A program made the translations under genes and the position numbers. Under the pieces are notes generated by a model. The model saw nothing but the letters and a program-made list of their open reading frames with translations, was not told the DNA's origin and searched no databases. A DNA stretch of 64,000 nt, from assembly GCA_016187035.1 (NCBI GenBank), contig JACPKL010000008.1:99990-163989 (forward strand), given 5' to 3'. Origin of the DNA: Candidatus Daviesbacteria bacterium. GTDB taxonomy: Bacteria; Patescibacteriota; Microgenomatia; Daviesbacterales; UBA10151. Of the stretch, positions 10,541 through 62,536 are shown piece by piece. The stretch's first letter is position 1. Every line of letters starts with the position of its first letter.

Positions 10541-10828
10541 TAATTAAATAAGCAAGCTTGTTGCTTGCGCAATAAAAGCGTTTGAGTTTGGTTTCCCGCC
10601 AAACAAGCTGAGTAGGGTGACTACTACAGAAGGACACTGTAAAAATAGCTCCAAAGTGTGTTGCTTCGTAAGCTCAGCATAAACTAGCTTAAAGAAGATA
10701 AAGCATTAAGAATCTTTTATTAGACACACCATAGGGTGTGTTTTTTTAAGGTTAAAGCAAGGTGGTACCACGAGTCTTTACCTCGTCTTTGCAATAGCTT
10801 AATGCTGTTGTAAAGAGGAGGTTTTTTA
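10541..10828 (+). promoter_or_regulatory. T-box riboswitch leader (probably tRNA-Pro responsive)
   Basis: T-box sequence AAGCAAGGUGGUACCACGAG at 10755-10774. Antiterminator: A1 10757-10760/10789-10792, a GGUGGUA bulge, A2 10770-10774/10782-10786. Mutually exclusive 18-bp helix 10781-10798/10804-10821. Stem III-like hairpin 10724-10741. Downstream operon ends in proS. Confidence 0.6.
10781..10827 (+). terminator. T-box expression platform: terminator helix that also sequesters the SD
   Basis: CCTCGTCTTTGCAATAGC / GCTGTTGTAAAGAGGAGG (18 bp, 1 mismatch, 2 G-U pairs), loop TTAAT, then TTTTTT 10822-10827. The 3' arm contains AGGAGG 10816-10821, 7 nt before ATG 10829. Confidence 0.6.
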
Positions 10829-11593
10829 ATGGAAAGACTAAAAAGAATATTAGTAAAAGTAGGCACAAGTGCAATTAAAAATGGCAGTGGAATAGACCAG
10901 GAGTTAGTTAATGATTATGCAAGGCAAATTGCTTGGTTAAGAAGAAACTATGGAATTGAGACTATTATTGTAAGCTCTGGAGCGATTGCCAGCGGAAGAG
11001 TGCTTGAGCCTAATTTAACCAGAAGTATTATTGATAAACAGGTTGCTGCCATGTTTGGACAGCCTGAGTTAATGACGGCCTGGCGGAGAGCATTTCAAAG
11101 ACAAGACATGATAGCAGGAGAAGCTTTGTTAAAAGATGATGATCTTGAGAACTTTCGATATCCTCTTTTAAGAGCATTACAGTTTGGGGTTGTGGTTATA
11201 AATGGTAATGATGTAACTTATAACCAAGACGCCGAAGAAGAAATAATCTCTGCAGATAATGATAGGCTCTCTAGAGTAGTAGCTAACAGATGCGGGGTTG
11301 GTCTGTTAATTATGTTAACTGAAGCTGAAGGTATTTTAGATGAAGATAGAAAGGTAATTTCAAATATAGCGAGCTATTCAGACCTACACAGGATTAGTTT
11401 TTTTGAGAGAACACAGGAAGGTATAGGTGGACCAGGTTCTAAACTTTTAGAAGCCAGAAAGTTTATTACTGATGCTACTAAAATAGCATATATTGCAGGA
11501 GCTAGGATGGAAAATGTAATATTGAGAATAGCAACTGGTGAGAGAGTAGGAACAAGAGTAACGTTGCCTTTACAAGGATTTTTAAATATATGA
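10829..11593 (+). CDS. proB: glutamate 5-kinase-like amino-acid kinase (no PUA domain)
   Basis: VKVGTSAI, IVSSGAIASGR, KQVAAMFGQ, VINGNDV, SADNDRLS and GGPGSKLLEA align with ProB motifs. Confidence 0.65.
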   Translation: MERLKRILVKVGTSAIKNGSGIDQELVNDYARQIAWLRRNYGIETIIVSSGAIASGRVLEPNLTRSIIDKQVAAMFGQPELMTAWRRAFQRQDMIAGEALLKDDDLENFRYPLLRALQFGVVVINGNDVTYNQDAEEEIISADNDRLSRVVANRCGVGLLIMLTEAEGILDEDRKVISNIASYSDLHRISFFERTQEGIGGPGSKLLEARKFITDATKIAYIAGARMENVILRIATGERVGTRVTLPLQGFLNI

Positions 11594-52500: not shown

Positions 52501-54099
52501 AGGTGGTTGGGTATCGCGATCTAGTCGAATCCTCCCTCTAGTTGTATCTGATATCTTGCTATCAATTGTGTCAATTTGCTCTATAAAAAATTGTAGCTTA
52601 CCAAATTCTTGTTTATGTTGGTTAATATATTGATAAGCTAAAAACTCTGATAGTCTAAATGATTGCCAATCTTTATATGAAGTATATTTCTCATTCAAAT
52701 ATTGTAAACGGCGAGATAATTGCATGAGAGAGGTACGGAGCCAATAGATTTTTCTTCCATCTTCTGCAGTTAAATCTTCTACTTTTATTTGATACATAAT
52801 CGGTATTTGGATTTGGGCTTCATTTAAAACTTGCTTCCAGGCAGGGTAAGCATCAGAAGATAGATTGGTTAGATAATAATAATCAACCTCTTTATTAACA
52901 GTAGGTTTGAAGCGGGTAGCTATTAAACCATCAACGTCAATGATGTTAAAAAGCAGCATCGCTAAAATTGTAACTGTGCCGGCTGCAATAAAAATATTTC
53001 TTTCTGTTTGCTTCTTAATAACTTCTATCAATAAAATTATTAGTATTAAGCAAAGCCAGACAAAAAAGATCATTCCAAAACCCCTAGCTCTAGTTAAACC
53101 ATGGGTTTGTATATAAAGGTTTACTCTTTGAAAAGCTGAAAGCAAAATTAGTACGGTTTCTAAAATTAAAAGAATAGATAAAGCTTGAGTGATATTTTTT
53201 TGCTTAATTTGTAACCGATGCATGAATTTTAAAATGTAAATCACTATTAATGAGGCAATTACTGAAACAATTAATAGTTCAAAAAACCCTTTTCTAACAT
53301 ACTCTGAATACGTTTGAGAATTTATCCCAATAGATCCAAGATTTGATTCTGATGCTTTATAAAATAAATATTGAAACTGAACAAAAATAAATGCAGCAAA
53401 AAGAATTGTGACACTGCCTGAAATTATTAATAATTCGTAGAATTTACCCAAAGCTAATTTTGAAGTATTAGCAGAGTCCGTAAAGGCCTTTTTAATTTGA
53501 GTGATTGAAGCAACAAAAAGAAATATAAAAAGAATTAATGAAATAAACAATCTTTCTTTAATATCTTTAAATAATAGATTGGCTAGTTTTCCAAAAACCG
53601 GATCGGCATTTGTTAGCAAAAGAAAAAGTATAAATACTAAAGGAATTGTGATTAATACCCCTTTTGTAATTGAAGAAAAATTATCTGATTTAAAATCATC
53701 GGTATTTATATCTTTGGAGTTAAGAATTTTTAAGCTACTAGTTAAATAACTGATTGTTGAATAAAATGGTATTAAAAGTGCATTAATTATTTTAAGGAAA
53801 AAAGCTTCTTCTGTTTTGTAAAGATAAAAAGCTAATATCAAGAAAAAAGAAACTGCAATAAAATTTGAGATTTGAACTACTCCCGAGTCTCTCCATCCAA
53901 ACATGGATCCAAAAATTACTGAAATAGCAGAAAAAACTAATGCCAGTTTAATATTTTTAGTTTTAGGATTTCTAGTTAAGAAATAAAAAAAATTTAAACC
54001 AAAAACCAAAACCCCTATTCCAATACCAGGTTGGACATGATAAAAAAATAGGTTATAAAGGAGGACAAAAACTAAAATAAGTAAAAGATTTTTTACCAT
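52492..54099 (-). CDS. polytopic membrane protein of unknown function (possibly DUF4153/DUF4173-like)
   Basis: Roughly 12 predicted hydrophobic helices followed by a roughly 130-aa soluble C-terminal region. No catalytic motif recognised. Confidence 0.55.
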   Translation of the reverse strand: MVKNLLLILVFVLLYNLFFYHVQPGIGIGVLVFGLNFFYFLTRNPKTKNIKLALVFSAISVIFGSMFGWRDSGVVQISNFIAVSFFLILAFYLYKTEEAFFLKIINALLIPFYSTISYLTSSLKILNSKDINTDDFKSDNFSSITKGVLITIPLVFILFLLLTNADPVFGKLANLLFKDIKERLFISLILFIFLFVASITQIKKAFTDSANTSKLALGKFYELLIISGSVTILFAAFIFVQFQYLFYKASESNLGSIGINSQTYSEYVRKGFFELLIVSVIASLIVIYILKFMHRLQIKQKNITQALSILLILETVLILLSAFQRVNLYIQTHGLTRARGFGMIFFVWLCLILIILLIEVIKKQTERNIFIAAGTVTILAMLLFNIIDVDGLIATRFKPTVNKEVDYYYLTNLSSDAYPAWKQVLNEAQIQIPIMYQIKVEDLTAEDGRKIYWLRTSLMQLSRRLQYLNEKYTSYKDWQSFRLSEFLAYQYINQHKQEFGKLQFFIEQIDTIDSKISDTTRGRIRLDRDTQPPLF

Positions 54100-54207
54100 T
54101 GTAGTTTTATACAGTCAGAGCATTATATCATATATGAATTGTATCATCGTAGTTGATAATACAAAAAGATTATGGTACGATTGGATTGTAACTAACGTTA
54201 TAGGATT

Positions 54208-54273
54208 ATGATTAATATTGTTATGTTAAGAAAATCTTTAATTCTCCTTGCTGTCCTTATAAGCCAAGTTTAA
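54208..54273 (+). promoter_or_regulatory. ilv leader peptide ORF (21 codons, 12 Ile/Leu/Val)
   Basis: MINIVMLRKSLILLAVLISQV*. AGGA lies just upstream. The stop codon abuts attenuator region 2. Confidence 0.5.
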
Positions 54274-54305
54274 CTTGGAGGGAGACTAAAGATTTAAATT
54301 TTAAG

Positions 54306-54332
54306 ATCTCCCTAAGCAGGGAGATTTTTTTT
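54306..54332 (+). terminator. attenuator terminator (regions 3:4)
   Basis: ATCTCCCT 54306-54313, loop AAGC, AGGGAGAT 54318-54325, with the stem running into an 8-T run at 54325-54332. The competing antiterminator is AGGGAGA 54279-54285 with TCTCCCT 54307-54313. Confidence 0.65.
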
Positions 54333-54387
54333 GGAGAAAAAAATTATCTACCTACAGCTATCAGCTGTCAGATAAAAAATAAAAAAT

Positions 54388-54416
54388 TTGACGGCTGATG
54401 ACTAAAGGTTGATAAT
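54388..54416 (+). promoter_or_regulatory. promoter-like element immediately upstream of ilvE
   Basis: TTGACG 54388-54393, 17-nt spacer, GATAAT 54411-54416. ATG 54425 is 8 nt downstream, with no SD. Confidence 0.4.
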
Positions 54417-54424
54417 TACATTGT

Positions 54425-55366
54425 ATGTCAAATCAAAAGCAGAAAGCAGAATATTTTCCCTATGCCTTTTTCCAAGAAAAAATAGTTCGTGTGGAAGATG
54501 CCAAAATATCTATTATGACTAATGCTTTACAATATGGCACTGGGATCTTTGCCGGTATCAGGGGTTATTATAATGAAAACAACGGTAAACCTTTTTTATC
54601 TGTTTTCAGGATAGAAGATCATTACACCAGGTTTTTGAATTCTTTAAAAATTATTGGAGTAAGTTTGGGTTACAATAAAGAGCAACTGATTGATATTACA
54701 CTAAACTTACTTAAGAAAAATAACCCCCACAAAGATACTTATGTCAGGCCTTTGGCTTACGCAGGAAGCGTTAATTTATCACCAAATTTAACCCGTGATA
54801 ACAAGTTTGACCTGGCCATTTATACCATTCCTTTGGGTGATTATTTACCAACAAATAAAGGTCTTTCTGCTAAAGTCTCTTCTTTTAGAAGAATATCTGA
54901 TAATGCTATTCCTGCCAGGGCAAAAATTTCAGGAGCATATATTAACTCAGCCTTAGCCAGAAAAGAAGCAGCAGATGCCGGTTTTGATGAAGCGATCTTT
55001 TTAACAGAAGACGGTCATGTAGCAGAAGGTTCTGCTGAAAATATATTTATTGTTAGAAATGGGATTTTAATTACCCCCCCAGTTTCTGATGAAGTTTTGG
55101 AAGGAGTTACCAGAAGAACTGTGATGGAGATTGCCAAGGAGGAAGATATCCCGGTTTTGGAAAGAAGCATTGACAGGTCTGAAATTTATATTGCTGATGA
55201 GGCTTTCTTCTGTGGTACCGGCGTGCAAGTTGTCTGGATTAATAATGTTGACGGAAGACAATTAGGCAATGGCAAGCGCGGACTGATTACTGCCAAAATT
55301 CAAGATAAATACTTCGGAATCGTCAGAGCCGGTGAGAGGCAGTGTACCAGGCTTAACCTTGTCTAA
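54425..55366 (+). CDS. ilvE: branched-chain amino acid aminotransferase
   Basis: Class IV aminotransferase: ALQYGTGIFAGIRGY, AKISGAYINS, EGSAENIF, LEGVTR. Confidence 0.9.
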   Translation: MSNQKQKAEYFPYAFFQEKIVRVEDAKISIMTNALQYGTGIFAGIRGYYNENNGKPFLSVFRIEDHYTRFLNSLKIIGVSLGYNKEQLIDITLNLLKKNNPHKDTYVRPLAYAGSVNLSPNLTRDNKFDLAIYTIPLGDYLPTNKGLSAKVSSFRRISDNAIPARAKISGAYINSALARKEAADAGFDEAIFLTEDGHVAEGSAENIFIVRNGILITPPVSDEVLEGVTRRTVMEIAKEEDIPVLERSIDRSEIYIADEAFFCGTGVQVVWINNVDGRQLGNGKRGLITAKIQDKYFGIVRAGERQCTRLNLV

Positions 55367-55378
55367 ACTACAAAACCT

Positions 55379-57064
55379 ATGAAACTTTCCGGCGGCCGCA
55401 TTTTAATGGAGTCTTTGCTAGAAAACCAAACTGATCTGATTTTTGGTTACCCTGGCGGGGCCATCATGCCAATTTATGATGCCCTTTATGATTATAAAGA
55501 TAAACTAAAGCATGTTTTAGTGCGTCACGAGCAAGGGGCAGCGCATGCTGCCGAAGGTTATGCCAGATTAAGCGGAAAAGTCGGGGTCTGTTTTGCCACC
55601 TCCGGCCCGGGAGCCACCAATCTGGTAACAGGAATTGCTGATGCCATGATGGACTCAGTGCCGCTGGTTTGTATCACAGGCCAGGTTTATGCAAATTTAC
55701 TGGGTACAGATGCTTTTCAGGAAACAGACATGATTGGTGTGACCACCCCTATTACTAAATGGAATTATCAAATTACAAAGCCTGATGAGGTGGCTGAAAC
55801 TATTGCCAAAGCTTTTTATATTGCCCGGACCGGCAGACCAGGGCCTGTATTAATAGATATTACCAAAAATGCTCAGATTGAAAAAGCAGACTTTAAATAC
55901 CCTCAAAAAATCTCTATTCCTTCATTTAAACTGCCTGGTAAACCAAATGATAATTTAGTAAAACAGGCTGCCAAATTAATCAATAATGCCCAAAAACCAT
56001 TTTTAATAGCAGGACATGGAGTAATTATTTCTAAAGCTTTTAATCAGCTAAAAACTTTAGCCCAAAAGGCGGATATTCCTGTTGCTTCAACTTTATTGGG
56101 TTTATCTGCCATACCTTCAAGCCACCCTTTAAGTATGGGTATTTTGGGTATGCATGGCAAGTATTCTACTAATGTCTTAACTAATCAGGCAGATGTAATT
56201 ATCGCAGTTGGAATGAGGTTTGATGACCGGGTGACTGGCCGGCTTAGTGAATATGCCAAACAGGCCAAGATTATCCATATAGATATTGACGCATCAGAAA
56301 TAAACAAAAATACCATTGCCAATGTAGCTATTAACGCTGATGCAAAATCAGCGCTAGAAGCTTTGATTCCTAAAATTAGCAAAAATGAACACACATCATG
56401 GCTGTCTGAGTTTAACAGGCTGGACCAGATTGAATTTGAAAAAGTCACCACTAAAGAGTTAACACCTCAAAATAACAAAATTAAAATGGCTCAGGTGGTA
56501 AATATGCTGTCAGATAAGACCAAAGGAAGGGCGGTTGTGGTGGCTGATGTAGGACAGCACCAGATGGTGACAGCCCGCTATTTTAAGTTTCAAAAAAATA
56601 ATTCATTTTTAACCTCAGGAGGAGCAGGTACCATGGGTTATGCTTTGCCAGCTGCTATTGGAGCAAAAATGGCCCAGCCCCAGACAGAGGTAATTGCCAT
56701 TATTGGTGATGGTTCTTTCCAAATGACAATCCAGGAATTGGCCACCATTGCCCAGGAAGGGATAGCCATCAAAATAATTATCCTGAACAATAAATTTTTA
56801 GGAATGGTCAGGCAATGGCAAGATTTATTTTTTGATAAAAGATATTCTTTTGTGGATTTAAAAAACCCTGATTTTGTAGCTGTTGCTAAAGGATTTTATA
56901 TTTATGGGGAAAAAGTAACCAGCTATTCGGATTTGGAAAAAGCAATTGAAAGACTTTTGAAAGCTAAAAAATCCTATCTGTTGGAAGTGGAAGTGGAAAA
57001 AGAAACCAATGTTTTTCCCATGGTGCCTGCCGGAGCATCTGTCGAAGAAGTGAGGTTAGAATGA
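55379..57064 (+). CDS. ilvB: acetolactate synthase large subunit
   Basis: ThDP enzyme: GYPGGAIMPIYDAL, TSGPGATNLVTGIADA, GDGSFQMTIQEL. Confidence 0.9.
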   Translation: MKLSGGRILMESLLENQTDLIFGYPGGAIMPIYDALYDYKDKLKHVLVRHEQGAAHAAEGYARLSGKVGVCFATSGPGATNLVTGIADAMMDSVPLVCITGQVYANLLGTDAFQETDMIGVTTPITKWNYQITKPDEVAETIAKAFYIARTGRPGPVLIDITKNAQIEKADFKYPQKISIPSFKLPGKPNDNLVKQAAKLINNAQKPFLIAGHGVIISKAFNQLKTLAQKADIPVASTLLGLSAIPSSHPLSMGILGMHGKYSTNVLTNQADVIIAVGMRFDDRVTGRLSEYAKQAKIIHIDIDASEINKNTIANVAINADAKSALEALIPKISKNEHTSWLSEFNRLDQIEFEKVTTKELTPQNNKIKMAQVVNMLSDKTKGRAVVVADVGQHQMVTARYFKFQKNNSFLTSGGAGTMGYALPAAIGAKMAQPQTEVIAIIGDGSFQMTIQELATIAQEGIAIKIIILNNKFLGMVRQWQDLFFDKRYSFVDLKNPDFVAVAKGFYIYGEKVTSYSDLEKAIERLLKAKKSYLLEVEVEKETNVFPMVPAGASVEEVRLE

Positions 57065-57537
57065 ACATCACTATTACCATTTACTCAGAAAACAAACCAG
57101 GAGTTCTTTACAGGATTGCCAATTTGTTTTTAAGAAGAAAAGTCAATATTGAATCCTTGACTGTGTCAGAAATTAAAAGCGAAGACAGATCCCGTTTTAC
57201 CATTGTAGTTAAAGAGGATTTGTCACTGGTTGCAAAAATTGCCAAACAGTTGGAAAGGATTATTGAAGTAAGCAGCGTAGAAATTCATACTGATAATGAG
57301 TTGATTTTTAAAGATGCAGCGTTAATTAAAATAAGTAAAAATCCAAAGGTGGTAAAGAAATTAGATAGTATTATTAGTCTGCTTAAAGCAAGTATAGCTT
57401 ATCAAAACGATAAATATATCATCATTGAGAAATTGGGGACAGAGGAAGATATAGATTTGTTAGTATCAACCTTAGAACCTTTTGTTAAAGAAACAGTGAA
57501 ATCAGGACGTATTGCTTTGCCAAAAAACGGACAGTAA
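57061..57537 (+). CDS. ilvN: acetolactate synthase small (regulatory) subunit
   Basis: ACT domain ..ENKPGVLYRIANLF.RR..NIESL.V. Confidence 0.85.
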   Translation: MNITITIYSENKPGVLYRIANLFLRRKVNIESLTVSEIKSEDRSRFTIVVKEDLSLVAKIAKQLERIIEVSSVEIHTDNELIFKDAALIKISKNPKVVKKLDSIISLLKASIAYQNDKYIIIEKLGTEEDIDLLVSTLEPFVKETVKSGRIALPKNGQ

Positions 57538-57556
57538 GATATACTTAGTCAAATTT

Positions 57557-58549
57557 ATGAAAAAGATTTATTACGATCAGGATACAGATTTGAAAGTATT
57601 AAGGAATAAAACCGTAGCTGTTTTTGGGTATGGCAGCCAGGGTTCTGCCCAGGCTCAAAACATGAGAGACTCAGGGGTTTCAGTTATTTTGGGTTTAAGA
57701 AGAGATGGCAGCTCCTGGTCTCAAGCTATGGAGGATGGTTTTCAGGTTTTTGAATTTAAGGAAGCTGCCAAACGGGCAGATATTTTGCATTTCCTGCTGC
57801 CTGATGAAAGGCATTTAGAAGTGTTTGAAGAAATTAAAGAGTTTATTACACCCGGTAAAACAATTGTTTGCAGCCATGGGTTTAATTTCCATTTTCAGGT
57901 GATTAATCCGCCAAAAGAAGTAGATGTAATTATGGTTGCTCCCAAAGCTCCGGGTCCGACTGTCAGGAGAGAATATGTTAATGGTTTTGGAGTGCCTGCT
58001 TTAATTGCTGTTTTTAAAAATGCTTCAGGAAAAGCCAAGGAAACTGCCCTGGCCCTGGCTAAGGCTAACGGCCATACGCGGGTGGGGGTTTTTGAAACAA
58101 CATTTAAATTTGAAACAGAAACAGATCTTTTTGGGGAGCAGACAGTGCTTTGCGGGGGAGTGGTGGAGTTGATGAGAATGGGTTTTGACACACTGACAGC
58201 AAATGGTTATCCGCCGGAAATTGCTTATTTTGAGTGTGTCCATGAGATGAAATTAATTGTCGATTTGATCTATCAGGGCGGTATGCTGGGCATGTATAAA
58301 AAAGTCTCAAACACTGCTAAGTTTGGAGGACTGACTGTTGGCCCGAAAGTTATTCCAGCCCAAACTAAAAAAGTAATGCAAAAAGCCTTAGATAAAATTA
58401 AATCAGGACAATTTAAAGCTAGTTGGATAGATAAAGAATTTAAAAAAGATAAATTAAAAAATTTAGATAAGATGTTGGATATGGTGTCAAAATGGCAGGT
58501 TGAGAAAGTAGGCAAGATTATCCGTCAGTTTGCAGGACTATCGGACTGA
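57557..58549 (+). CDS. ilvC: ketol-acid reductoisomerase
   Basis: VAVFGYGSQGSAQAQNMRDSG, GFNFHF, LFGEQTVLCGG. ATG 57557. The stop region overlaps repeat fragment 58535-58566. Confidence 0.9.
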   Translation: MKKIYYDQDTDLKVLRNKTVAVFGYGSQGSAQAQNMRDSGVSVILGLRRDGSSWSQAMEDGFQVFEFKEAAKRADILHFLLPDERHLEVFEEIKEFITPGKTIVCSHGFNFHFQVINPPKEVDVIMVAPKAPGPTVRREYVNGFGVPALIAVFKNASGKAKETALALAKANGHTRVGVFETTFKFETETDLFGEQTVLCGGVVELMRMGFDTLTANGYPPEIAYFECVHEMKLIVDLIYQGGMLGMYKKVSNTAKFGGLTVGPKVIPAQTKKVMQKALDKIKSGQFKASWIDKEFKKDKLKNLDKMLDMVSKWQVEKVGKIIRQFAGLSD

Positions 58550-58566
58550 ACGAAGCGAAGGAGATC
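58535..58566. repeat. type A internal fragment
   Basis: GGACTATCGGACTGAACGAAGCGAAGGAGATC against GGAATCGGACTGAGCGAAGCGACGTGGCAATC (32016-32047), about 26/32 by eye. Contains the ilvC stop codon. Confidence 0.55.
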
Positions 58567-58614
58567 GTTTGCAAACAAGTCTCCAGTGGAGAGTTTTTTG
58601 ACAAGGGGAGAGAA

Positions 58615-59331
58615 ATGATTAAACTGACTGGTGTAAGTCTGGCCCGGAATAAAAGGGTGATATTAGAGGATTTGAATTGGGAAGTAAAAAAAGGTGAGCA
58701 TTGGGCGGTTCTCGGTGGCAATGGCGCCGGTAAAACTATGCTTTTGAAAATGCTCTCGGGTTACCTTTGGCCAAGTAAAGGTGAGATTTTTGTATTGGGT
58801 AAAAAGTTTGGGGAAGTGGATTTATCTGCTCTACGCCAGACTATTGGCTGGGTTAGTTTTGACTTGCAGAAAGTGGTGGGGGAGGTTAGCGCATGTGAAG
58901 TTGTTTTGTCAGGGTATTTTGCTTCAATTGGTTTATATAAAAAACCAACTGAACAAATTTTGAAAAGAGCAGATAAACTTTTAAAATTTGTCGGACTTAA
59001 AGAGCATAAAGACAATTTGTTCTCCCACTTGTCTTATGGAGAGCAGAAAAAGATTTTAATAGCCAGAAGTTTGATAAGCAAACCAAAGCTTTTGCTTTTG
59101 GATGAGCCATGTTCCGGATTGGATATGAAAGCAAGAGAAGAATTTTTGCTCTTTGTGGATAAGGTGGCAAAACAAAAAAATGGTCCAACCATTATTTTAG
59201 TGACTCATCACCTTGAAGAAATTATACCAGGTATGACTCATGTTTTGGCTTTAAAACAAGGGCAGATAGTGGGTAAAGGTGAAAAGAGAGAAATATTAAC
59301 TGAAGCATTAATAAAGAAAGTATTTGCATGA
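58615..59331 (+). CDS. stand-alone ABC-type ATPase (no permease partner in the window)
   Basis: GGNGAGKT Walker A, LSYGEQKK signature, LLLLDEP Walker B, VTHH switch. Confidence 0.8.
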
Positions 59332-60818
59332 AGAAAAAAATTATTGTCTTTGATACAACTTTAAGAGATGGTGAGCAGGTGCCGGGTTGCCAGCTGAATA
59401 CTGTTGAGAAAATTGAAGTAGCAGAAAACTTGGAAGATATGGGTGTGGATGTGATAGAGGCAGGTTTTCCCATTTCTTCTCCAGGGGATTTTAATTCTGT
59501 TTCAGAAATTGCTAAAGTAATTAAAAAATCAACAGTCTGCGCTCTGTCACGGGCTGTTGCCAAAGACATTGAAGCAGCCTGGGAAAGTATTAAAAAGGCA
59601 AGAAATCCAAGGATCCATACTTTTATTTCCAGCTCAGATATACATATTAAATACCAGTTTAAATCAACCAGGGAAAAAATATTAGCCCAAGGAGTTGAAG
59701 CAGTGAAACTAGCTAAAAGCTTTTGTGAAGATGTGGAGTTCTCTGCCATGGATGCAGGCAGAACTGGGAATGGGTTTTTAGCCAAATTTATTGAAAGCGT
59801 GATTACAGCAGGAGCGACTACTGTTAACATCCCGGACACAACTGGTTATTGTTTGCCTGATGAGTTTGGCCAAAAAATTAAATTTTTATTTGAAAACGTT
59901 AAAAACATTCATAAAGCTATAGTCTCAGTGCATTGCCATAATGATTTAGGTATGGCTACAGCCAATACCATTTCTGCAGTCCAAAACGGAGCAAGGCAAA
60001 TAGAAGTGACAGTTAATGGTGTCGGAGAAAGGGCAGGCAATACTTCTTTAGAAGAAGCAGTAATGATTATTAAAACAAGACAGCAGTTACACAAGTTTAC
60101 CAATATTGACACTAAAAAGATCTATCCAATCAGCAGATTAGTTTCCCGTTTGATGAGGATGCCGGTGCAGCCAAATAAAGCCATAGTTGGCAGAAATGCT
60201 TTTGCCCATTCATCCGGTATCCATCAGGATGGAGTTTTAAAAAATAAATTTACTTATGAGTTAATAAACCCTTGTGAAGTAGGATTGTCTGAGTCCAGTT
60301 TGGCATTAACAGCCCGCTCCGGACGTTCTGCTTTGAAGCATCATCTGGAAAGGTTAGGATTTAGTATTACTGCTGAAGAGTTGGACGATGTTTATCAGCA
60401 GTTTGTTAGATTAGCTGATCAGAAAAAAGATATTAGCGATGATGACTTAAGGCAAATCATGGGACAAAAACCAAAAGGAGACGGTGCCAGCCTGGAGCTT
60501 TTAGAGGTAGTTTGCGGTAGACCTCTTACTCCAAAGGCAACTGTCAAGCTTTTGATAGAAGGTAAAGAGTATACTGCTACTGCCATAGGTAATGGTCCGG
60601 TTGACGCCACTTTCAAAGCAATTAATAATATTGTCAGGAAAAAAGTGCTGCTTGAGGAATTTTTAATCCAGGCAATTACCAAAGGGTCTGATGATATAGG
60701 GAAAGTGCATATTCAGGTTTCTTACAAGGGGAATTATTATTATGGTTTTGGCACAGATACTGATATTGTGGTTGCTTCGGCCAAAGCTTATTTAAATGTG
60801 TTAAACAAGGTAATATGA
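59328..60818 (+). CDS. leuA: 2-isopropylmalate synthase (or citramalate synthase)
   Basis: [41 protein letters not shown], and a C-terminal LeuA dimerisation/regulatory domain. Confidence 0.85.
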
Positions 60819-62536
60819 ATTGTTGCAGGAAATTGAAAATCAGAAGCGGAGAATTGACTGGTACACCTTGTTCTGATAATTGGGTTAAAAGAGCTCCGGC
60901 CCGCTCCATGTTTAGGGCAGTAGGTTTTAAAGATGAAGATTTTAAAAAACCTTTAATTACTGTTGCTTGCCCATACACAAATGCCACTCCCTGCAATGCC
61001 CATATTGAAAGTTTAGGAAAAATAGTTTGTGATGAGGTGGAAAAAACAGGAGGTAAGCCAATTATTTTTGGCACACCTGTGGTAACTGATGGTGAAACAA
61101 TGGGAACCGAAGGAATGAAGTATTCTCTGGTATCAAGGGATTTGATTGCAGACAGCATTGAAATGATGCATGAAGCATATCTGGCTGATGGGATATTAAC
61201 TTTATCCGGATGTGATAAAACAATCCCGGCCAGCTTAATGCCGATTGCCAGGAATAATTCTATTGGCCTGACTTTATACGGGGGAACAATTTTAGCCGGG
61301 TCGTACAAAGGTGAAAGTTTAACTATTGTTTCAACTTTTGAAGCAGTCGGAGCATATTCTGCCGGCAAATTTGATGAGAAAGACTTGTATGAAATAGAAT
61401 GCAGGGCTTGTCCTGGTAATGGGGCATGCGGGGGAATGTATACAGCCAACACCATGGCTTCAGCAATTGAAGCTTTGGGAATGAGTATTCCTTATTCTTC
61501 TTCCCATCCGGCAGTTGATGCAAATAATCAAATCTCGAAGGAAAAAAGAAAAGACTGTGAGCAGTCGGTTAAAACTCTTTTTAATCTTTTAAAAAAAAGA
61601 ATCAGGGCCCGCCAGATCATGACTTTTGAAGCCTTTGAAAATGCAATTACTTTGGTGATGGCTTTAGGCGGTTCAACTAATGCTGTTTTGCATCTCTTGG
61701 CTTTAGCTCATGAAGCAGGTGTGAAATTGAATCTTTCAGATTTTGACAGGATTGCCCAAAAAGTGCCATTAATTGGAGATTTTAAACCTTTTGGTAAATA
61801 TGTGATGGCAGACTTAGATAAAATTGGCGGAGTGCCCGTGGTAATGAAACACCTGTTAGATAATGGGTTAATTAATGGAGATTGTTTGACAGTAACAGGT
61901 AAAACCATAACCGAGAATCTGCAGGATGCTCCTGATTTTCCAAAAGACCAGAAAGTAATTTACTCTTTGGAAAAACCTTTATCAGAAGCAGGCCATCATA
62001 TTAGAATTCTGCATGGTAATTTAGCTAAAGACGGAGCAGTTATAAAATTATCCGGAAAAGAGTTAAAAAGGTTTTCCGGTCCTGCCCGTGTTTTTGAAAG
62101 TGAAGAAAGTGCTTTAGATGCAATCTTGCAGGATAAGATTAAAAAAGGAGATGTAATGATTATAAGATCTGAGGGTCCAAAAGGCGGGCCAGGGATGAGG
62201 GAGATGCTGTCTCCATCAGCTGCTTTGATGGGAAAAGGTTTAGGCAAAGATGTGGTTTTAATTACTGATGGCAGGTTTTCCGGAGGGTCACATGGAATTA
62301 TGATAGGGCATGTTGCGCCGGAAAGTTTTGAAGGGGGTAATATTGCCTTGATAGAAGAAGGAGATAAAATTACCATTAATCTTGATAAATTAACTCTAGA
62401 TTTAGAAGTAGATGAAAAGATACTTCAGCAAAGAAGAAAAAAATGGTCTGCTCCTAAACCCAGATATCAACGGGGCGTCTTGGCAAAATACGCCAGGTTG
62501 GTTTCTTCCGCTTCAAAAGGGGCAGTAACATCCTGA
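60815..62536 (+). CDS. ilvD: dihydroxy-acid dehydratase
   Basis: [58 protein letters not shown]. Confidence 0.9.

What the first reader, a model, noticed from the sequence alone, without database searches (positions are those of the whole stretch)
54208..54332. Leader-peptide transcription attenuator upstream of the ilv/leu cluster
Seen: a 21-codon ORF, MINIVMLRKSLILLAVLISQV, has 12 Ile/Leu/Val codons, and 7 of the 8 codons at positions 11-18 are Ile/Leu/Val. It ends at TAA 54271-54273. Four segments follow. Segment 1 is CCAAG 54264-54268, inside the ORF. Segment 2 is CTTGG 54274-54278 plus AGGGAGA 54279-54285. Segment 3 is ATCTCCCT 54306-54313. Segment 4 is AGGGAGAT 54318-54325 running into an 8-T run. 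The 3:4 pairing is an intrinsic terminator, and 2:3 (AGGGAGA/TCTCCCT) is mutually exclusive with it. A ribosome reaching the stop would cover segment 2 and favour termination. Stalling at the BCAA codons would free segment 2 and favour read-through. Established knowledge: this is the logic of the ilvGMEDA, ilvBN and leu attenuators of Proteobacteria, whereas Firmicutes use T-boxes for ilv-leu. Inference: this is a classical ribosome-mediated attenuator, in the same genome that uses a T-box for proS.
Basis: partly seen in the sequence, partly recalled or inferred. Interest (0 to 1): 0.65.

Follow-up and report, generated by a model that had tools for sequence, protein, structure and literature searches.

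The report
Leader-peptide attenuator before ilv operon

Summary

At least 34 related leaders have the same layout. They come from loci whose ilvE is 55-81% identical to the window's, and labelled genomes are Daviesbacteria, Levybacteria, Woesebacteria and Roizmanbacteria. The layout has four parts:
- a sigma-70 promoter;
- a 15-27-codon ORF that is 47% Ile/Leu/Val;
- a stop codon in the loop of a small hairpin;
- a segment just after the stop that pairs with the 5' arm of an intrinsic terminator lying 25-41 nt downstream.

That segment changes together with the terminator sequence across 13 terminator classes (permutation p about 5e-5). In close relatives ilvE starts 4-14 nt after the T-run, so ilvE can only be expressed by read-through.

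Three corrections are needed:
The conserved ORF starts at 54223 (MLRKSLILLAVLISQV) and is probably translated with little or no 5' leader, as in Corynebacterium IlvL.
- The genome is CPR, not Firmicutes.
- This genome has lost the -35 box and gained a 76-nt palindrome between the terminator and ilvE.

No Rfam family matches. The verdict is a new member of a known kind, of moderate interest.

The parts
54153..54181 (+). Promoter-like site TTGATA-17-TACGAT with TG before the -10. It is a candidate replacement promoter in this genome.
   Evidence: 9 of 12 matches, TG present. Weak evidence: matches of this quality occur at the chance rate in this AT-rich DNA.
54207..54212 (+). TATGAT, the conserved -10 hexamer of the leader promoter. 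The TTGACA -35 of the relatives is missing here.
   Evidence: In 25 of 26 relatives a 9.5-11.5 of 12 promoter has its -10 ending 6-13 nt before the leader start codon. The window scores only 7.5 of 12.
54223..54273 (+). Conserved leader ORF MLRKSLILLAVLISQV plus TAA. An in-frame extension back to ATG 54208 is possible only if transcription starts further upstream.
   Evidence: An ORF of 15-27 codons lies at the same place in 34 leaders, with I+L+V = 47%.
54238..54261 (+). Regulatory codon run TTA ATT CTC CTT GCT GTC CTT ATA (L I L L A V L I).
   Evidence: The equivalent runs in relatives are ILVLLI, ILVILI, IIVLLI, LVLLV and LVVLLVII.
54243..54252 (+). Outer part of segment 1, UCUCCUUGCU, inside the regulatory codons. 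It pairs with segment 2 (7 bp) or with segment 4 (10 bp).
54264..54278 (+). Stop-centred hairpin CCAAG-UUUAA-CUUGG (inner 1:2 pairing). The TAA lies in the loop.
   Evidence: A hairpin centred on the stop codon is folded for most of the 26 leaders, with compensatory changes (CCAGA/TCTGG, CACG/CGTG, CCGC/GCGG, GCCC/GGGC). Own versus swapped halves gives permutation p = 2e-4.
54279..54313 (+). Antiterminator: AGGGAGA(CU) 54279-87 pairs with (AG)AUCUCCCU 54304-13 and encloses a small hairpin.
   Evidence: -15.3 kcal/mol including the stop hairpin, z = -3.1; inverted repeat I16. Co-variation with the terminator arm is shown.
54303..54332 (+). Intrinsic terminator AAGAUCUCCCU-AAGC-AGGGAGAUUUU with an 8-T run at 54325-32.
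   Evidence: -12.9 kcal/mol; inverted repeat I6.
54342..54417 (.). 76-nt near-perfect palindrome inserted between the terminator and ilvE. It contains the promoter-like site TTGACG-17-GATAAT (54388-54416), which ends 8 nt before the ilvE ATG.
   Evidence: -31.8 kcal/mol, z = -5.9; unique in the window. It is absent from the closest relatives.
54425..62536 (+). Regulated cluster ilvE, ilvB, ilvN, ilvC, an ABC ATPase gene, leuA and ilvD.
   Evidence: (NCBIfam equivalog matches above the curated cut-offs).

Best explanation
This is a classical ribosome-mediated (leader-peptide) transcription attenuator that couples expression of ilvE-ilvBN-ilvC-leuA-ilvD to the supply of charged Ile, Leu and Val tRNAs.

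Proposed mechanism:
1. Transcription starts just upstream of a 16-codon ORF (54223-54273). The ORF has no Shine-Dalgarno sequence and is probably translated from a leaderless or nearly leaderless 5' end.
2. When BCAA-tRNAs are plentiful, the ribosome runs to the TAA. The TAA sits in the loop of the CCAAG/CUUGG hairpin. A ribosome there covers segment 2 (CUUGG AGGGAGA, 54274-85). Segment 3 then pairs with segment 4, and RNA polymerase terminates at the 8-U tract (54325-32).
3. When the ribosome stalls in the L-I-L-L-A-V-L-I run, it covers segment 1 but leaves segment 2 free. Segment 2 pairs with segment 3 as soon as segment 3 is made. The terminator cannot form, and transcription reads into ilvE.

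What is shown: the sequence elements, their complementarity, their conservation and co-variation, and the fact that close relatives have no room for a separate ilvE promoter.

What is inferred: translation of the ORF, stalling, the timing of folding, and the actual termination and read-through.
For: Anatomy is confirmed.

Context: the element lies upstream of an operon of BCAA enzymes.

Conservation: 26 distinct relatives found by script, and more found with the covariance model, share a promoter, an I/L/V-rich ORF, a stop codon in a hairpin loop, and a terminator 25-41 nt after the stop. They include genomes labelled Levybacteria, Woesebacteria and Roizmanbacteria.

Peptides: 34 leader peptides are 47% I+L+V, against 25% in the window's long ORFs. 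Ile, Leu and Val interchange at the run positions.

Antiterminator: segment 2 begins 2-11 nt after the first base of the stop codon in 25 of 26 loci and pairs with the terminator 5' arm. Across 13 different terminator sequences, each locus's own segment 2 fits its own arm better than in any of 20,000 permutations (p = 5e-5).

Stop hairpin: it co-varies (p = 2e-4).

Formal pair count: on the model-fitted alignment the covariation score is 0.222 against 0.087 in shuffles (0 of 500 reach it), and 6 of 10 pairs show changes on both sides.

Ribosome-mask folding: in many of the main-group relatives (L055, L057, L062, L074 and L077 are the clearest), an equilibrium model gives terminator probability about 1 with no ribosome, about 0 with the A site in the BCAA run, and about 1 at the stop.

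Obligatory read-through: in L043, L044, L047, L048, L052 and L083 the ilvE ATG lies 4-14 nt after the T-run.

Specificity: the model gives no hit at E <= 1 in 189 kb of non-CPR ilvE loci.

Precedent: C. glutamicum IlvL (MTIIRLVVVTARRLP) is translated from a start codon 1 nt from the transcription start, without a ribosome-binding site, and controls ilvBNC through three hairpins (PMC11857589; PMC10272879).
Against: There are no expression, Term-seq or ribosome data for any member.

In this window the conserved TTGACA -35 is missing, and the best local promoter scores 7.5 of 12. The upstream alternative (54153-81) is no better than chance-level matches.

A 76-nt palindrome with a promoter-like site now separates the terminator from ilvE. 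It could let ilvE escape the attenuator.

The equilibrium ribosome-mask model is not clean for the window's subgroup. Terminator probability is 0.14 with no ribosome and 0.5-0.9 at the BCAA codons, because segment 1 can also pair with segment 4. The mechanism must therefore rely on co-transcriptional kinetics. From my own knowledge, the same holds for trp.

Within the closely related main group, the antiterminator columns are 83% paired but show no covariation beyond shuffles. The support comes from comparison between classes.

One family member (L085) precedes an FTR1-like permease rather than a BCAA gene.
Confidence: 0.85

Rival explanations
1. The attenuator is real as a family, but in this genome it is a bypassed or decaying relic. 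The native promoter has lost its -35. The inserted palindrome supplies a new promoter (TTGACG-17-GATAAT, ending 8 nt before the ilvE ATG) that transcribes ilvE as a leaderless mRNA independently of the leader.
For: The -35 is lost relative to the four closest relatives, and the promoter score is 7.5 of 12 against 9.5-11.5 elsewhere. The palindrome is absent from close relatives. The distance from the -10 to the ATG (8 nt) falls within the 6-13 nt seen for the leaderless leader ORFs.
Against: The leader ORF, all four segments and the T-run are intact, and they are identical in five independent samples. Promoter-like 10 of 12 matches occur at the chance rate in this DNA: 22 found against 22.5 expected. 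An extended -10 candidate exists upstream at 54153-81. Several relatives also carry long structured spacers after an intact leader.
Confidence: 0.2
2. The main regulatory output is translational rather than, or in addition to, transcriptional. Segment 4 doubles as the ilvE Shine-Dalgarno sequence, so the 3:4 hairpin hides the ribosome-binding site and the 2:3 pairing frees it.
For: By my reading of the sequences, GGAGG or GGGAG of segment 4 lies 8-11 nt before the ilvE ATG in L043, L044, L052 and L083.
Against: Nearly every member has a strong U-tract of 6-9 U directly after the hairpin, which is the mark of intrinsic termination. Most members, including the window, have 20-180 nt between the hairpin and ilvE, so segment 4 cannot be the ribosome-binding site there.
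Confidence: 0.1
3. The RNA switch is operated by a protein, a tRNA or a metabolite (in the manner of a T-box, a riboswitch or an RNA-binding protein), and the ORF is incidental.
For: The alternative terminator and antiterminator pairing alone would be compatible with such a switch. The same genome appears to have a divergent T-box elsewhere.
Against: No Rfam family reaches its threshold in the window or in 16 relatives. The only near hit is to a leader-peptide family, Phe_leader. The ORF, its length, its I/L/V run and the placement of the stop in the hairpin loop are conserved while the nucleotide sequence changes. No conserved unpaired ligand-pocket-like core is shared between subgroups.
Confidence: 0.05
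4. It is an independent small gene for a hydrophobic peptide (a membrane peptide or type I toxin) with its own promoter and terminator.
For: The peptide is hydrophobic, and the unit has its own promoter and terminator.
Against: The peptides are only 15-22 aa, with a 6-9-residue hydrophobic run, which is too short to span a membrane. The position is always directly upstream of ilv genes. In close relatives ilvE has no other possible promoter. Segment 2 co-varies with the terminator arm, which a simple gene terminator would not require.
Confidence: 0.03

Closest known systems
Corynebacterium glutamicum ilvBNC attenuator (leader peptide IlvL; ilvB-II motif)
   Same: Both have a 15-16-aa leader peptide that mixes Ile, Leu and Val codons. 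Both have a start codon at or next to the transcription start and no ribosome-binding site. Both use a three-hairpin logic (anti-antiterminator, antiterminator, terminator) and control acetolactate synthase and isomeroreductase genes (PMC11857589; PMC10272879).
   Different: No sequence similarity is evident by eye between the two leaders. The Corynebacterium motif is GC-rich, and its transcript starts 292 bp upstream of ilvB. Here the whole unit is about 110 nt, AT-rich, usually precedes ilvE, and often ends within a few nt of the ilvE start codon. The phylum is also different (CPR Microgenomates).
E. coli/Salmonella ilvGMEDA (ilvL), ilvBN (ivbL) and leu (leuL) leaders
   Same: The mechanism class is the same, and control is multivalent through codons for more than one BCAA. 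The stop codon lies just before segment 2 (general knowledge, not tested here).
   Different: The enterobacterial leaders have a Shine-Dalgarno sequence, 28-32 codons and longer RNA. No Rfam leader family for these matched the window, even at E <= 10.
Rfam RF01859 Phe_leader
   Same: It gives a full-length, structure-consistent alignment at 38.7 bits in the window and 45.8 bits in L086. This reflects the shared layout of ORF, antiterminator and terminator.
   Different: Both scores are below the gathering score of 55. The regulatory codons are I/L/V rather than Phe, and the downstream genes are ilv rather than pheA. It is not a member.
ilvB-OMG and Leptospira ilvB motifs (uORF candidates, Narunsky et al. 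2023)
   Same: Both are predicted BCAA-rich uORF attenuators upstream of ilvB, found by comparative genomics.
   Different: The ilvB-OMG representatives are about 205-nt, GC-rich sequences, many of them from marine metagenome reads, and they share no sequence with this leader. No Rfam hit of that kind was obtained.
Staphylococcus aureus ilv-leu leucine-rich attenuator peptide
   Same: It is a leader-peptide attenuator of BCAA synthesis outside Proteobacteria and Actinobacteria (PMC5794164, title and abstract).
   Different: It is leucine-specific and acts together with CodY. I did not compare it further.

Membership tests
Ribosome-mediated leader-peptide transcription attenuators of amino-acid operons | Short ORF in the 5' leader with a cluster of codons for the regulated amino acid(s) | tested here: met
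   MLRKSLILLAVLISQV has 9 of 16 I/L/V codons and 7 of 8 in the run. The 34 family peptides are 47% I/L/V.
Ribosome-mediated leader-peptide transcription attenuators of amino-acid operons | Intrinsic terminator between the leader ORF and the first structural gene | tested here: met
   The hairpin at 54303-54328 is -12.9 kcal/mol and is followed by 8 U. The feature is present in all 26 scripted relatives.
Ribosome-mediated leader-peptide transcription attenuators of amino-acid operons | Antiterminator pairing (2:3) that is mutually exclusive with the terminator (3:4) | tested here: met
   AGGGAGA 54279-85 pairs with UCUCCCU 54307-13. It forms in 25 of 26 relatives. It co-varies between terminator classes, p = 5e-5. 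Within the main group there is no covariation beyond shuffles.
Ribosome-mediated leader-peptide transcription attenuators of amino-acid operons | Geometry: a ribosome at the stop codon masks segment 2, and a ribosome on the regulatory codons masks segment 1 only | tested here: met
   Segment 2 starts 2-11 nt after the first base of the stop codon. The stop lies in the hairpin loop in most of the 26 leaders. The mask model behaves as expected in many main-group members and less cleanly in the window.
Ribosome-mediated leader-peptide transcription attenuators of amino-acid operons | Located upstream of biosynthetic genes for the same amino acids | tested here: met
   ilvE, ilvB, ilvN, ilvC, leuA and ilvD lie downstream. 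The relatives have ilvE followed by ilvB.
Ribosome-mediated leader-peptide transcription attenuators of amino-acid operons | A promoter upstream, so that the leader is the 5' end of the operon transcript | tested here: inconclusive
   This is met in 25 of 26 relatives, where the -10 ends 6-13 nt before the start codon. In the window the -35 is missing, and the alternative promoter is only a chance-level match.
Ribosome-mediated leader-peptide transcription attenuators of amino-acid operons | Short terminated transcript, leader translation, and BCAA-dependent read-through shown experimentally | not testable with these tools
   No transcriptome or ribosome data are available here.
Rfam RF01859 Phe_leader | Score at or above the gathering threshold (55 bits) and a run of Phe codons upstream of pheA or pheST | tested here: not met
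   The score is 38.7 bits. The codons are I/L/V and the genes are ilv.
T-box leader (RF00230) | Specifier loop and the conserved T-box sequence that pairs with the tRNA acceptor end | tested here: not met
   There is no T-box match in 54050-54500, even at E <= 10. The only T-box-like match in the window is at 10601-10793.
Corynebacterium ilvB-II motif (IlvL uORF) | Leader start codon at or next to the transcription start, with no ribosome-binding site | tested here: inconclusive
   Promoter geometry in the relatives implies a 5' UTR of about 0-6 nt, and no SD-like 4-mer lies in -16 to -4. No 5'-end data exist, and the window's promoter is altered.
Corynebacterium ilvB-II motif (IlvL uORF) | Sequence and structure homology to the motif alignment | not tested
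   The motif alignment was seen but was not searched against the window. The sequences are GC-rich and look unrelated by eye.
Small hydrophobic membrane peptide or type I toxin | A hydrophobic stretch long enough to span a membrane (about 18-20 residues), and genomic context independent of ilv | tested here: not met
   The peptides are 15-22 aa with a 6-9-residue hydrophobic run. They always lie next to ilv genes.

The most novel reading that the evidence does not exclude
A previously uncatalogued family of leaderless-translated Ile/Leu/Val leader-peptide attenuators is ancestral and widespread in the Microgenomates branch of the CPR. If so, these reduced-genome, uncultured bacteria would couple transcription to translation tightly and regulate their own BCAA synthesis by tRNA charging.

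In a subset, the terminator's 3' arm also serves as the ilvE ribosome-binding site, giving dual transcriptional and translational control.

In this Daviesbacteria genome the unit is being rewired by loss of the -35 box and by insertion of a palindrome that carries an outward-facing promoter.
Probability: 0.3. Interest if true: 0.55.

Novelty: new member of a known kind. Interest (0 to 1): 0.42.

Why it matters
Very little is known about gene regulation in CPR/Patescibacteria. They are uncultured and are usually described as metabolically minimal.

This element has several consequences:
- It gives a concrete, testable cis-regulatory system for one CPR superphylum.
- It indicates that the BCAA pathway in these genomes is regulated rather than a passive remnant.
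- It extends leader-peptide attenuation to a lineage beyond Proteobacteria, Actinobacteria and Firmicutes. As late as 2010 the first two were the only groups in which it had been shown (PMC2965389).
- It offers a compact attenuator of about 110 nt with a leaderless uORF, suitable for in-vitro dissection.
- It supplies a seed alignment for an Rfam-type family that would improve the annotation of hundreds of CPR metagenome bins.

The mechanism itself is textbook, so the gain is in phylogenetic reach and annotation, not in a new principle.

Tried and rejected
1. The genome-contig scan with the ilvE protein returned only relatives of 49% identity or less from other phyla, and none had the leader.
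2. A MAFFT alignment of all 26 leaders followed by RNAalifold gave no consensus structure. The stems shift register between subgroups and the structures compete. I replaced it with per-locus folding and permutation tests and with a model-fitted alignment.
3. Column-wise covariation of the antiterminator within the main group was not significant.
4. Equilibrium ribosome-mask modelling does not reproduce the expected switch cleanly for the window's own subgroup. I use it only as support from the main group.
5. The consensus terminator scan missed the terminator.
6. I considered whether the ilvB-OMG motif might be this element. Its alignment shows a GC-rich sequence of about 205 nt, many copies from marine metagenome reads, that is unrelated.
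7. I looked for other copies of the 76-nt palindrome in the window and found none.
8. Literature searches for leader-peptide attenuation in CPR, Patescibacteria or Microgenomates returned nothing relevant. The library covers open-access papers only.

Full report
**Observation.**
- The ORF runs from ATG 54208 to TAA 54271-73 and encodes MINIVMLRKSLILLAVLISQV. It has 12 I/L/V codons, and 7 of the 8 codons at positions 11-18 are I/L/V.
- The segments are CCAAG 54264-68, CTTGG+AGGGAGA 54274-85, ATCTCCCT 54306-13 and AGGGAGAT 54318-25.
- Eight T follow at 54325-32.

The 153-nt leader folds with z = -4.3 against dinucleotide shuffles. The terminator hairpin is -12.9 kcal/mol. The simple terminator scan missed it, probably because the stem extends into the T-run. 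I/L/V-rich mini-ORFs are uncommon but not rare in this 36%-GC DNA: 6 of 386 small ORFs reach 7 of 8. The ORF alone would therefore not be convincing.

**Context.** The flanking genes are as follows.
- Upstream, on the minus strand, lies a gene for a 535-aa protein that matched no NCBIfam family here. An identical protein on contig L038 is recorded as DUF4153.
- Downstream, on the plus strand, lie ilvE (54425), ilvB, ilvN, ilvC, an ABC ATPase gene, leuA and ilvD.

The ilvE protein is 100% identical to one named Candidatus Daviesbacteria. Its nearest homologues are named Levybacteria, Woesebacteria, Roizmanbacteria and Patescibacteria. The genome therefore belongs to the CPR Microgenomates, not to Firmicutes or Proteobacteria.

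**Known RNA families.** No Rfam family reaches its gathering score in the window, and none matched at E <= 0.05 in 16 related loci. The only near hit is Phe_leader RF01859, which is itself a leader-peptide attenuator. It scores 38.7 bits in the window and 45.8 bits in L086, against a gathering score of 55. This reflects a shared layout, not membership.

**Relatives.** I fetched the region upstream of ilvE for homologues of 52-81% identity. The element is conserved well beyond the window.

A script found 26 distinct leaders with three shared features:
- an I/L/V-rich ORF of 15-20 codons, once over-extended upstream starts are trimmed;
- a stop codon in the loop of a small hairpin;
- an intrinsic terminator beginning 25-41 nt after the stop.

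A covariance model seeded only from the distant main group, without the window or its close relatives, recovered further members. In the window its best hit is 54259-54331, at 21.3 bits and E 0.03-0.06. It found nothing at E <= 1 in 189 kb of non-CPR ilvE loci.

Example peptides are MKNHTSYILVLLINR, MKNNSSYILVILINHA, MKRNSLVLLVAEIISQR, MNKNSLLLVVDLLILVEK (Levybacteria) and MKTFLSAEIIVLLINR (Woesebacteria). Over 34 peptides I+L+V is 47%, against 25% in the window's long ORFs, and the three residues interchange at the run positions.

**Which start codon.** In 25 of 26 relatives a strong sigma-70 promoter (9.5-11.5 of 12 matches) has its -10 ending 6-13 nt before the leader start codon. No SD-like motif lies in between.

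It is not conserved as a start: L047 has TAAAAT there, and in L043 and L048 that frame stops after a few codons. The conserved start is ATG 54223, giving MLRKSLILLAVLISQV.

The implied 5' UTR of about 0-6 nt means leaderless or near-leaderless translation. Corynebacterium glutamicum IlvL works this way (PMC11857589). The two ATGs are in frame, so the downstream logic does not depend on which is used.

**Alternative structures.**
- Per-locus folding shows that segment 2, starting 2-11 nt after the first base of the stop codon, pairs with the terminator's 5' arm in 25 of 26 loci. The antiterminator energies are -7.5 to -17.8 kcal/mol, against -7.7 to -14.8 for the terminators.
- The terminator sequence differs between lineages (GGGAGA, GAGGGA, GGGAGG, GGCGG, GCGGGG, GGCGGC and others), and segment 2 changes with it. 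Among 13 classes, own pairings beat all 20,000 permutations (p = 5e-5).
- The stop-centred hairpin also co-varies: CCAAG/CTTGG, CCAGA/TCTGG, CACG/CGTG, CCGC/GCGG and GCCC/GGGC (p = 2e-4).
- On the model-fitted alignment the formal covariation score is 0.222, against 0.087 for shuffles (0 of 500 reach it). Six of 10 pairs show changes on both sides.
- On an unfitted MAFFT alignment of the main group, the terminator state scores 0.108 against 0.049 (2 of 500).
- On the same alignment, the antiterminator is 83% paired but shows no within-group covariation.

**Mechanistic test in silico.** I masked a ribosome footprint codon by codon and computed the terminator probability. Many main-group members behave as the classical model predicts, most clearly L055, L057, L062, L074 and L077: about 1 with no ribosome, about 0 with the A site in the I/L/V run, and about 1 at the last codons and the stop.

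The window's own subgroup is less clean: 0.14 with no ribosome, 0.5-0.9 in the run, and 0.9-1.0 at the stop. The reason is that UCUCCUUGCU (54243-52) can pair with segment 4 as well as with segment 2. As in trp (my own knowledge), the decision must be kinetic.

In L043, L044, L047, L048, L052 and L083 the ilvE ATG is 4-14 nt after the T-run. There ilvE can only be expressed by read-through, which argues strongly that the terminator is regulatory. By my reading of the sequences, segment 4 (GGAGG or GGGAG) lies 8-11 nt before the ATG in four of these. It could double as the ribosome-binding site.

**Peculiarities of this genome.**
- Alignment with the four closest relatives shows that the TTGACA -35 is missing, although the spacer GTTATAGGAT and the -10 are retained.
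- An alternative site, TTGATA-17-TACGAT with an extended -10 TG, lies at 54153-81.
- A 76-nt near-perfect palindrome (54342-54417; -31.8 kcal/mol, z = -5.9) separates the terminator from ilvE. It contains TTGACG-17-GATAAT, ending 8 nt before the ilvE ATG.
- Promoter-like matches of this quality occur at the chance rate here, so a bypass promoter is only a hypothesis.
- The intergenic region is identical in five samples.

**Comparison with known systems.** The closest functional analogue is the Corynebacterium ilvBNC attenuator, the IlvL or ilvB-II motif. The ilvB-OMG motif is an unrelated GC-rich sequence of about 205 nt, with many copies from marine metagenome reads. Full-text searches found no report of leader-peptide attenuation in CPR, Patescibacteria or Microgenomates.

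**Verdict.** This is a genuine, conserved Ile/Leu/Val leader-peptide attenuator. It is a new member of a well-known kind, found in a lineage where cis-regulation is essentially undescribed. Interest is moderate.

Noticed in passing
window 54342-54417: A 76-nt near-perfect palindrome (RNA hairpin -31.8 kcal/mol, z = -5.9) is inserted between the attenuator T-run and the ilvE ATG. It is absent from the closest relatives and occurs only once in the window. It carries promoter-like hexamers on both strands. A GGAG at 54333-36 and the ATG at 54425 flank its base, so the hairpin could bring a Shine-Dalgarno-like motif close to the start codon.
   Followed up: partly
window 10601-10793 (+): A sub-threshold T-box match (35.1 bits against a gathering score of 93) retains the signature AAGGUGGUACCACGAG. 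It lies upstream of an ORF starting at 10829. It is probably a divergent T-box, so the genome would use both tRNA-sensing and ribosome-sensing attenuation.
   Followed up: partly
window 58549-59331: An ABC-transporter ATPase gene without an adjacent permease gene is embedded between ilvC and leuA and overlaps the leuA start. The ilvC-ABC gap holds a weak hairpin plus T-run (58580-58598) and a promoter-like site (58598-58625).
   Followed up: no
L043 5150-5963; L044 5153-5957: In the closest relatives the acetolactate synthase small subunit (ACT domains) is fused to an aminotransferase domain, giving a 558-559-aa product. In the window ilvN is a 158-aa protein.
   Followed up: no
window 54197-54206 and the equivalent positions in L043, L044, L047, L048: The promoter spacer sequence GTTATAGGAT is invariant in all five Daviesbacteria-like loci, even though the window has lost the -35. 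It may be a binding site for an additional regulator.
   Followed up: no
L049 2513-2583; L085 2492-2575: Members of the same leader family lie downstream of ilvE rather than upstream. In L085 the leader (MKITFVKILNLALLTV) directly precedes an ORF that I judge, by its REFLEAFLIVG motif only, to be an FTR1-like permease. That is not an obvious BCAA gene.
   Followed up: partly
L053, L054, L066, L129 (spacer between the terminator and ilvE): Several relatives carry GC-rich REP-like palindromes (for example GATTCCCGCCTTCGCGGGAATGAC) in the same spacer. This spot appears to be a hotspot for insertion of palindromic elements.
   Followed up: no
whole window: Only 15 of 59 ORFs of at least 150 aa have an SD-like 4-mer in -18 to -4 of their first ATG. 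ilvE, ilvB, leuA and ilvD are among those without one. This suggests weak Shine-Dalgarno use in this genome. The estimate is crude because the start codons were not curated.
   Followed up: partly
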